NCBI GenBank assembly: GCA_951406725.2
Contig: OX597827.1
Location: 72,292,001-72,356,000 of the forward strand
DNA length: 64,000 nucleotides
From: Octopus vulgaris
Lineage: Eukaryota
Direction of reading: 5' to 3'
Below the pieces are notes generated by a model. It was not told where the DNA came from. It was given only the letters and a program-made list of their open reading frames with translations, and did not search any database. This document shows, piece after piece, positions 62,983-63,292 of the stretch (its first letter is position 1; each line of letters opens with the position of its first letter). The translations under genes and the position numbers were made by a program.

Positions 62983-63289
62983 CCGGAGTAAACACATAAA
63001 TGTGAAACAAGGTGGAAAAATGAGTACTCAAATACCAGTGGTAGAGTAATATGCTTTATTTAAAGCAGCAGAAAATTCAACAAAACCTGTTACTCTGAGT
63101 TTCGCGTTGCCGTTCATCGGACAGTTTTTGCTAGTAAAGCAGCAGAAAATTCAACAAAACCTGTTACTCTGAGTTTCCCGTTGCCGTTCATCGGACAGTT
63201 TTTGCTAGAATCTAGCAAAAGCTGTCCGATGAACGGCAACGGAAACTCAGAGTAACAGGTTTTGTTGAATTTTCTGCTACTTTAAATAA

Positions 63290-63292
<3 letters not shown>
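62983..63292. mobile_element. Element family H with two direct 74-bp hammerhead units and one inverted unit
   Basis: 63061-63134 and 63135-63208 are direct repeats; 63212-63292 is inverted about ctag-aat-ctag. Core reads CCGAUGA..GAAAC-UCAGAG-UA. (TA)n on both flanks. Confidence 0.8.

What the first reader, a model, noticed from the sequence alone, without database searches (positions are those of the whole stretch)
62983..63292. Tandem plus inverted minimal hammerhead array in a tiny non-coding element embedded in (TA)n (retrozyme / Penelope-pLTR-like)
Seen: a ~310-bp element with no ORF contains two direct 74-bp units on the minus strand and a third inverted unit. Each unit reads helix I - C(C/U)GAUGA - ACG-GCAA-CG(N) - GAAAC-UC-A-GAG-UA - helix I'. 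Established: minimal type-I hammerheads with an unfoldable, palindromic helix III occur in Penelope-like element pLTRs and metazoan retrozymes and cleave as dimers; direct plus inverted pLTRs and (AT)n targeting are known for PLEs. Inference: the tandem pair could fold as a double hammerhead and release a 74-nt monomer, making this a very small ribozyme-based mobile RNA family. Caveat: these copies have U4>C and a mismatched helix II closing pair.
Basis: partly seen in the sequence, partly recalled or inferred. Interest (0 to 1): 0.72.

Follow-up and report, generated by a model that had tools for sequence, protein, structure and literature searches.

The report
Truncated Penelope retrotransposon ends, mutated hammerheads
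This 310-base insert is two cut-short, back-to-back ends of a common protein-coding jumping gene (a Hydra-type Penelope element), each with a real hammerhead-ribozyme motif that is likely weakened by a core mutation; the doubled 74-base unit occurs only here and is likely a one-off copying slip, not a new self-replicating RNA.

Summary
The three hammerhead units are there. They are not a tiny ribozyme replicon. They are the 3' end (pseudo-LTR) of an autonomous 3.4-kb Penelope-like element with a 727-aa RT plus GIY-YIG frame and Hydra-clade motifs; at least 8,267 such ends lie in this genome. The motif is genuine: relatives at 38-49% protein identity carry it at the same place with strong covariation, and a model built without this genome scores all three units. 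The layout (tailed arm plus tail-less inverted arm in (TA)n) is the family's normal product, 53 of 53 pairs. The 74-bp tandem junction occurs once in 2.8 Gb; only 7 short direct tandems exist, each with its own junction. The window's copies belong to a derived U4C sub-lineage (1,741 exact cores) that kept amplifying. Extra details: arm 5' ends stop at an initiator-like site 47 nt before the cut, almost none at the cut; two clade-wide hairpins sit just behind the two 3' ends and likely set where copying starts. This scan already reported the same kind of insertion, and these hairpins, on other DNA. Cleavage and transcription start are untested.

The parts
62960..62982 (.). (TA)n target tract at the tailed 3' end
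   Evidence: sequence
62983..63053 (-). 71-bp tail between the family's two 3' ends (+36 and +107 from the predicted cut)
   Evidence: 3' ends of 137 arms: 65 at +107, 56 at +36; the same tail precedes the ORF in full-length copies
63022..63047 (-). tail hairpin 1 (ACUC...GAGUACU), compensatory form of the clade motif GCUC...GAGCACU; likely marks the short RT start site
   Evidence: function inferred
63061..63134 (-). unit B: pLTR end joined to the tail; hammerhead 63087-63124, core CCGAUGA (U4C), predicted cut between 63091 and 63090
   Evidence: 37.4 bits
63135..63211 (-). unit A: extra direct copy, likely a template jump; hammerhead 63161-63198 (U4C); begins at the initiator-like ATTCTAG where family 5' ends pile up
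   Evidence: (32.7 bits)
63211..63291 (+). inverted tail-less arm ending at AATAAAG; hammerhead 63222-63258 (U4C, one base deleted at 11.1)
   Evidence: (25.0 bits)
63292..63524 (.). (TA)n / (TATG) tract at the short 3' end
   Evidence: sequence
27037..27187 (-). second, one-armed copy of the same family with the canonical CUGAUGA core
   Evidence: (44.2 bits)
8486..8587 (.). third, older and shorter two-armed copy without a hammerhead core

Best explanation
The insert is a dead, two-armed stub of a Hydra-type Penelope-like retrotransposon, likely made when the element's enzyme nicked a TA repeat and copied the start of its own RNA onto both cut ends, with one extra template jump that likely doubled the 74-base unit. 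Shown: identity to the pLTR of full-length pLTR-ORF-pLTR copies; two fixed 3' ends; one tailed and one tail-less arm per pair; a wall of 5' ends 42-48 nt before the predicted cut; U4C in a derived sub-lineage. Inferred: the RNA starts at the A of YYATTCT (-47); the RT binds two hairpins and starts 6 and 8 nt in front of each, so priming near the RNA's 5' end gives 85- and 156-nt run-off cDNAs; the two cDNAs join head-to-head by microhomology, often at the CTAG palindrome; here the tailed cDNA reached the RNA end and jumped back once before joining. The hammerheads are passengers at this site: likely weak (U4C, dimer-dependent) and, in a read-through transcript, predicted to be locked in an 80-bp hairpin with the inverted arm.
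For: Walk upstream from the unit leads through about 1.2 kb of 3' UTR to an endonuclease frame. Six of 12 regions fetched for long frames hold unit-tail-ORF (723-727 aa)-UTR-unit, in tandem in L091; the window arm is 96-98% identical to these ends. Model pLDDT 88.9, best structural match telomerase TERT, E 3e-9. Hydra motifs. Hammerhead at the same place in 56 of 77 related loci; helix I 92% paired against 45% shuffled with a core-only search; covariation 0.90 against 0.20. 53 of 53 head-to-head pairs have one tail. The tailed arm is the longer in 13 pairs, the short arm in 24, which excludes simple snap-back copying of one arm. 30 of 101 arms end at -42 to -48, 6 between -49 and -110, 1 at the cut. 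Two hairpins in 14 of 21 relatives' 5' copies; relatives' 3' copies end before hairpin 1 (13 of 21) or between the two (7 of 21). Two internal RT start sites bounding the tail, both strands extended, ribozyme not needed: shown in vitro for a Poseidon element (PMC11167929).
Against: No direct evidence for the transcription start: only contigs were available. The CTAG palindrome alone could enrich junctions at -44/-46, and TTCCATTCTAG also looks like a splice acceptor. No initiator-like motif recurs at a fixed distance in relatives. The three units of the window differ at a subfamily-diagnostic base, whereas 24 of 27 other pairs agree, so more than one template RNA or later mutation is involved. 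31 of 137 arms have no partner. Clade membership rests on motifs; no tree with published Hydra sequences was built. No target-site duplication can be read in (TA)n.
Confidence: 0.85

Rival explanations
1. A 74-nt retrozyme: the tandem folds as a double hammerhead, releases a monomer that circularises and is re-inserted by the PLE enzyme as its own family.
For: The isolated tandem's minimum-energy fold already holds the inter-unit helix III and both helices I; forcing the full double hammerhead costs 4 kcal/mol (-28.8 against -32.8). Animal retrozymes are proposed to derive from pLTRs (10.64898/2026.07.22.740005).
Against: The junction occurs once in 2.8 Gb. Only 7 direct tandems with 57-87 nt spacing match genome-wide, each with a different junction. 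Both cores are U4C. With the inverted arm the element folds to a -152 kcal/mol hairpin. 1 of 101 5' ends lies at the cut.
Confidence: 0.03
2. The short two-armed copies are a non-autonomous family (MITE- or SINE-like) that spreads by copying itself rather than arising anew from full-length masters.
For: 41 of 53 pairs are mini-mini and many share near-identical junctions at CTAG; only 32 exact tail-to-ORF junctions exist against 8,267 3' ends. Arms of a pair agree at diagnostic sites in 24 of 27.
Against: Junctions vary base by base in both arms; minis carry the same diagnostic variants as long copies; minis end before hairpin 2, which the tailed end appears to need.
Confidence: 0.08
3. Same origin, but the extra unit is a later DNA-level tandem duplication (slippage or repair), and the 5' wall reflects the palindrome or a splice site rather than the RNA start.
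For: A 74-bp direct repeat can arise after insertion; CTAG is self-complementary; the D. virilis intron ends at helix I (PMC4209133).
Against: Unit A carries ATT 5' of CTAG and unit B starts exactly at the family hot spot; 2 of the 6 other tandems also restart at ATTCTAG or CTAG (L144, L148); the units differ at a subfamily-diagnostic base; most ends keep TCTAG, which a spliced RNA would lose.
Confidence: 0.15

Closest known systems
Hydra clade of C-terminal EN+ Penelope-like elements (Craig et al. 2021, PMC8557442), closest hammerhead Hydra-2_aMil
   Same: RWK, DKT, no CCHH, CxxC and CxH around E and N, (TA)n targets, hammerhead in the pLTR. Hydra-2_aMil has the same helix I (ctgt/acag), core and actc-N-gagt helix III (File S2).
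   Different: Period 3.4 kb with about 1.2 kb 3' UTR (published ones mostly under 3 kb); 71-bp tail (30-40 bp described); helix II only 2 bp plus a GNRA loop; most copies have CxF for CxC in the linker; a U4C sub-lineage. Not Hydra-1_Obim, whose protein and hammerhead differ.
Complex PLE insertions: inverted 5'-truncated pLTR plus one-sided tail (PMC8557442 Fig. 2; PMC3846280)
   Same: Head-to-head arms, palindromic junction, tail at one end only, solo pLTR pieces.
   Different: Here the ORF-less mini pairs dominate, 5' ends pile at one site, and arm lengths argue for two primings rather than the antisense self-priming proposed in PMC3846280.
Minimal hammerheads of PLEs (Cervera and de la Pena 2014, PMC4209133)
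   Same: Type I, palindromic short helix III, extra base after A9, predicted dimer use; opposite-strand pairs 100-700 bp apart were already noted.
   Different: U4C in about a third of exact cores (1,741 against 3,541); very short helix II.
PAc Poseidon element of Anolis (Frangieh et al. 2024, PMC11167929)
   Same: Two internal start sites bounding the tail, AT-rich targets, no ends at the ribozyme cut.
   Different: Here both sites lie before the ORF and each precedes a conserved hairpin; inferred from genomic ends only.
Metazoan non-LTR retrozymes (PMC7229834; 10.64898/2026.07.22.740005)
   Same: Type I hammerhead in a direct repeat, no ORF.
   Different: Those are multi-copy tandem families of about 220-350 bp monomers with circular RNAs; this tandem is a single 74-bp event.

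Membership tests
EN+ Penelope-like element | single ORF with telomerase-like RT | tested here: met
   727-aa frame with YRDD; fold search best match TERT. Pfam gave no family.
EN+ Penelope-like element | C-terminal GIY-YIG endonuclease | tested here: inconclusive
   GVVY...TYTG with R, H, E, N behind it by inspection, matching the published Hydra alignment rows; no Pfam or PDB sequence hit.
EN+ Penelope-like element | pseudo-LTRs, tandem and inverted insertions, one-sided tail | tested here: met
Hydra clade | RWK and DKT motifs | tested here: met
   both in P0001; RWK 26 of 34 and DK[TS] 34 of 34 in the alignment
Hydra clade | no CCHH in the endonuclease; CxxC and CxH beside E and N | tested here: met
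   0 of 34 with CCHH, 34 of 34 with the other two
Hydra clade | CxCx5C linker | tested here: inconclusive
   present in 2 of 11 copies read and 32 of 34 alignment rows; CxFx5C in the other 9 copies
Hydra clade | (TA)n targets and hammerhead in the pLTR | tested here: met
Hydra clade | generally under 3 kb | tested here: not met
   period 3,431 bp in L091; a tendency in the paper, not a strict criterion
Hydra clade | placement in an RT tree with published members | not tested
   published sequences were seen only as cut text in the supplement
Minimal type I hammerhead | core CUGANGA, GAAA, NUH | tested here: not met
   met by the family's main lineage (3,541 exact) but the window's three units have C4
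Minimal type I hammerhead | covarying helices I, II, III | tested here: met
   across relatives: 9 of 11 pairs change on both sides, 97% paired (33 of 54 motifs aligned); within this family the helices hardly vary
Minimal type I hammerhead | self-cleavage as a dimer | not testable with these tools
   fold is feasible for the isolated tandem
Non-LTR retrozyme | multi-copy tandem family with a fixed monomer | tested here: not met
Non-LTR retrozyme | circular monomer RNA | not testable with these tools
   only contigs on offer

The most novel reading that the evidence does not exclude
Hydra-clade elements carry a two-hairpin landing pad (GCUC-N8-18-GAGCACU, twice, about 60 nt apart) that places two RT subunits on one RNA and fixes both insertion ends, so priming near the capped 5' end yields retrovirus-like strong-stop stubs by the thousand; and the ribozyme is dispensable for spread (a U4C lineage kept amplifying) but tilts the output towards long copies (19 of 50 U4 arms against 6 of 45 C4 arms reach the upstream UTR).
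Probability: 0.3. Interest if true: 0.55.

Novelty: new member of a known kind. Interest (0 to 1): 0.3.

Why it matters
The window feature is ordinary debris of a known clade. Its family is useful, though: it is young, has intact 727-aa copies, thousands of insertions with sharp ends, and natural U4 and C4 ribozyme lineages side by side. That makes open questions on Penelope elements testable: what sets the two start sites and the tail, how inverted arms form, and what the hammerhead is for. It also warns that ORF-less fold-back stubs of such elements can be mistaken for retrozymes or MITEs.

Tried and rejected
Rfam scan: no hammerhead family, only hairpin look-alikes. Single-unit folding: no stable hammerhead, z-scores near 0. 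Pfam and PDB sequence searches of the ORF: nothing. My first guess of the Neptune clade (recalled) was dropped after reading the Hydra criteria. The first 5'-end map was spoiled by (TA)n matches and redone; the copy tally was not de-duplicated and is used only for variant types. Model R1 had helix II out of register and was not used. RNA: no RNA holder listed; contigs of four guessed-RNA runs cover the stretch, one across the tail-ORF joint, but cannot show starts, ends or strand. No ORF remnant of the element within the window or 6 kb beyond it. Snap-back copying of one arm rejected by arm lengths. Ribozyme-cut RNA as main template rejected (1 of 101 ends). The reverse-strand control for the tail hairpin is not clean because the motif is nearly palindromic (9 of 21 hits); the ORF control is (0.014 per window). 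No earlier finding matched this sequence itself.

Full report
Observation. The window holds, on the minus strand, an inverted arm (63291-63211), unit A (63208-63135), unit B (63134-63061), AATAAAG and a 71-bp tail ending at 62983, between (TA)n tracts. Each unit has CUGU, CCGAUGA, a 2-bp GCAA-capped helix II, GAAA, the interrupted palindrome ACUC-A-GAGU, A17 and ACAG. No coding frame. The genome has 2.8 Gb; that it is an octopus is my inference from its size and microsatellite load and from labels in earlier scan notes.

What it belongs to. A search of the genome with the 310 bp gave 96 matches in 40 scored of 1,298 candidates; of the 30 loci fetched only the window has two direct units. Some copies run on upstream, through about 1.2 kb of UTR, into an endonuclease-like frame. 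Of 12 regions fetched for long open frames, six (L090-L092, L094-L096) hold unit, tail, a 723-727 aa ORF, UTR and unit again, with a 3,431-bp tandem in L091. The window's tailed arm is 96-98% identical to these ends. The protein has at least 1,595 relatives, folds with mean pLDDT 88.9 and matches telomerase TERT best. It has RWK, DKT, YRDD, no CCHH, and CxxC and CxH near the end: the criteria of the Hydra clade (PMC8557442, section 11 read whole; passages; supplement searches and part 2 of 59). It is not the published Hydra-1_Obim. Exact counts: 8,267 3'-end 27-mers and 32 tail-to-ORF junctions.

Is the hammerhead real? In 77 related loci from metagenome contigs a descriptor found 69 sense hits in 56 loci, 3 antisense and 0 in reversed sequence, mostly 150-220 nt before or 80-540 nt behind the ORF. 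With a core-only search that asks for no pairing, helix I is 92% paired in 54 distinct motifs against 45% after shuffling. On 33 of these 54, 9 of 11 pairs change on both sides, covariation 0.90 against 0.20 shuffled and at most 0.13 slid. The model built from them, with no sequence of this genome, scores the window units 37.4, 32.7 and 25.0 bits and the U4 copy at 27137-27182 44.2 bits. Published Hydra-2_aMil has the same helix I and III. A mismatch closing helix II is common in the clade (U.U 22, G-C 20 of 54). Minimal PLE hammerheads cleave weakly and only as dimers (PMC4209133, parts 1-2 of 4 read).

U4C. Exact cores number 3,541 with U4 and 1,741 with C4. Relatives have U4 (54 motifs against 2 C4 hits). 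In trees of the ORF end the C4 copies form one branch inside the U4 family (37 DNA rows; 33 protein rows plus 5 outgroups, support 96/91, long outgroup branches and an unsettled bootstrap; one U4 copy inside it was counted with C4 as a likely CpG reversion). C4 copies come in several sub-variants, so the lineage went on replicating. Of 30 of the 32 junction loci read, 5 have a frame open for all 497 codons in view, all U4; none of 6 C4 ones does. U4C lowers activity considerably in vitro yet allowed viroid infectivity (PMC3088659, passages), so the units are likely weak, not surely dead. Arms reaching the upstream UTR: 19 of 50 U4, 6 of 45 C4 (p 0.01; per insertion 13 of 35 and 5 of 36, p 0.03); age and subfamily confound this.

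Is the tandem a replicon? Its exact junction occurs once. Direct tandems with 57-87 nt spacing match at 7 places, each with another junction. Alone, the tandem can adopt the double hammerhead (-28.8 against a minimum of -32.8 kcal/mol); with the inverted arm the element is a -152 kcal/mol hairpin. Retrozymes are multi-copy tandem families with circular RNAs (PMC7229834, passages; 10.64898/2026.07.22.740005, part 1 of 5). This is not one.

How such stubs form. In 76 loci from the first 33 Mb of contig C1, chosen by core or 3'-end pattern, 137 arms end at +107 (65) or +36 (56) from the predicted cut, 16 elsewhere. All 53 head-to-head pairs have one tailed and one short arm (cut-off +60; two borderline), 41 are mini-mini, 7 long-long, 5 mixed or middle; 31 arms are single. 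The tailed arm reaches further 5' in 13 pairs, the short arm in 24, equal in 16, so each arm needs RNA template of its own; this argues against the antisense self-priming proposed for rotifer elements (PMC3846280, passages). Arms agree at four diagnostic sites in 24 of 27 pairs (shuffled mean 11.5; one of the three misses is two separate insertions). Of 101 arms, 4 start 3' of the cut, 38 at 0-41 nt before it (1 within 2 nt), 30 at 42-48, 6 at 49-110 and 23 beyond. The wall lies at YYATTCT, which fits the initiator consensus (recalled); Penelope has an internal promoter with an initiator in its pLTR (PMC2377424, passages). I infer run-off at the RNA's 5' end. A Poseidon element starts reverse transcription at two internal sites that bound the tail, extends both strands, is predicted to be a dimer and does not need its ribozyme in vitro (PMC11167929, parts 1-2 of 4).

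Tail hairpins. In this family hairpin 1 (ACTC...GAGTACT, a compensatory change) lies 6 nt behind the +36 end and hairpin 2 lies 8 nt behind the +107 end. Searches found no paper on them, and none on this family beyond PMC8557442; the library lacks most subscription journals and Repbase. Earlier scan notes report the same insertion type, the hairpins and the fold-back point on other DNA; they are not independent evidence.

Verdict. Real motif, known kind of element, ordinary insertion with a rare template jump. New family of the Hydra clade; interest 0.3. The bolder reading (two-hairpin landing pad, strong-stop stubs, dispensable but length-tuning ribozyme) has about 0.3 probability as a whole and would deserve 0.55.

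Noticed in passing
window 18272-18931 (+): 220-aa open frame with a PIF1-like helicase signature (FAMSINKSQGQT; label recalled), likely a Helitron fragment.
   Followed up: no
window 45824-45912 (-): Another hammerhead-like motif, CUGAUGA with a 52-nt helix II region then GAAACAC-UUGUA, 18.9 bits, E 0.005.
   Followed up: no
L016:1857, L028:1283, L045:1963; L036, L093, L097; L047, L095, L112; L018, L143: At least six other minimal-hammerhead families in this genome; one has CCGACGA in 2 of 3 copies, so U4C may recur in other families.
   Followed up: no
L090-L096 protein linker: 9 of 11 copies read, including intact young ones, have CxF in place of the clade's CxC in the linker zinc-finger-like motif.
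   Followed up: partly
L323, L333, L343, L344: Copies in which the ORF start jumps back into pLTR sequence after about 20-40 codons: further template jumps.
   Followed up: no
L304:235-938: A more distant Hydra-like ORF fragment (25-35% identity to P0001) beside a family copy.
   Followed up: no
window 12516-13068, 56398-56601, 59246-59521: Tandem repeats of 184, 66 and 66/132 bp units.
   Followed up: no
L107 (G000 C1:4678529-4679414): A C4 and a U4 two-armed stub inserted 600 bp apart, both joined exactly at CTAG.
   Followed up: partly
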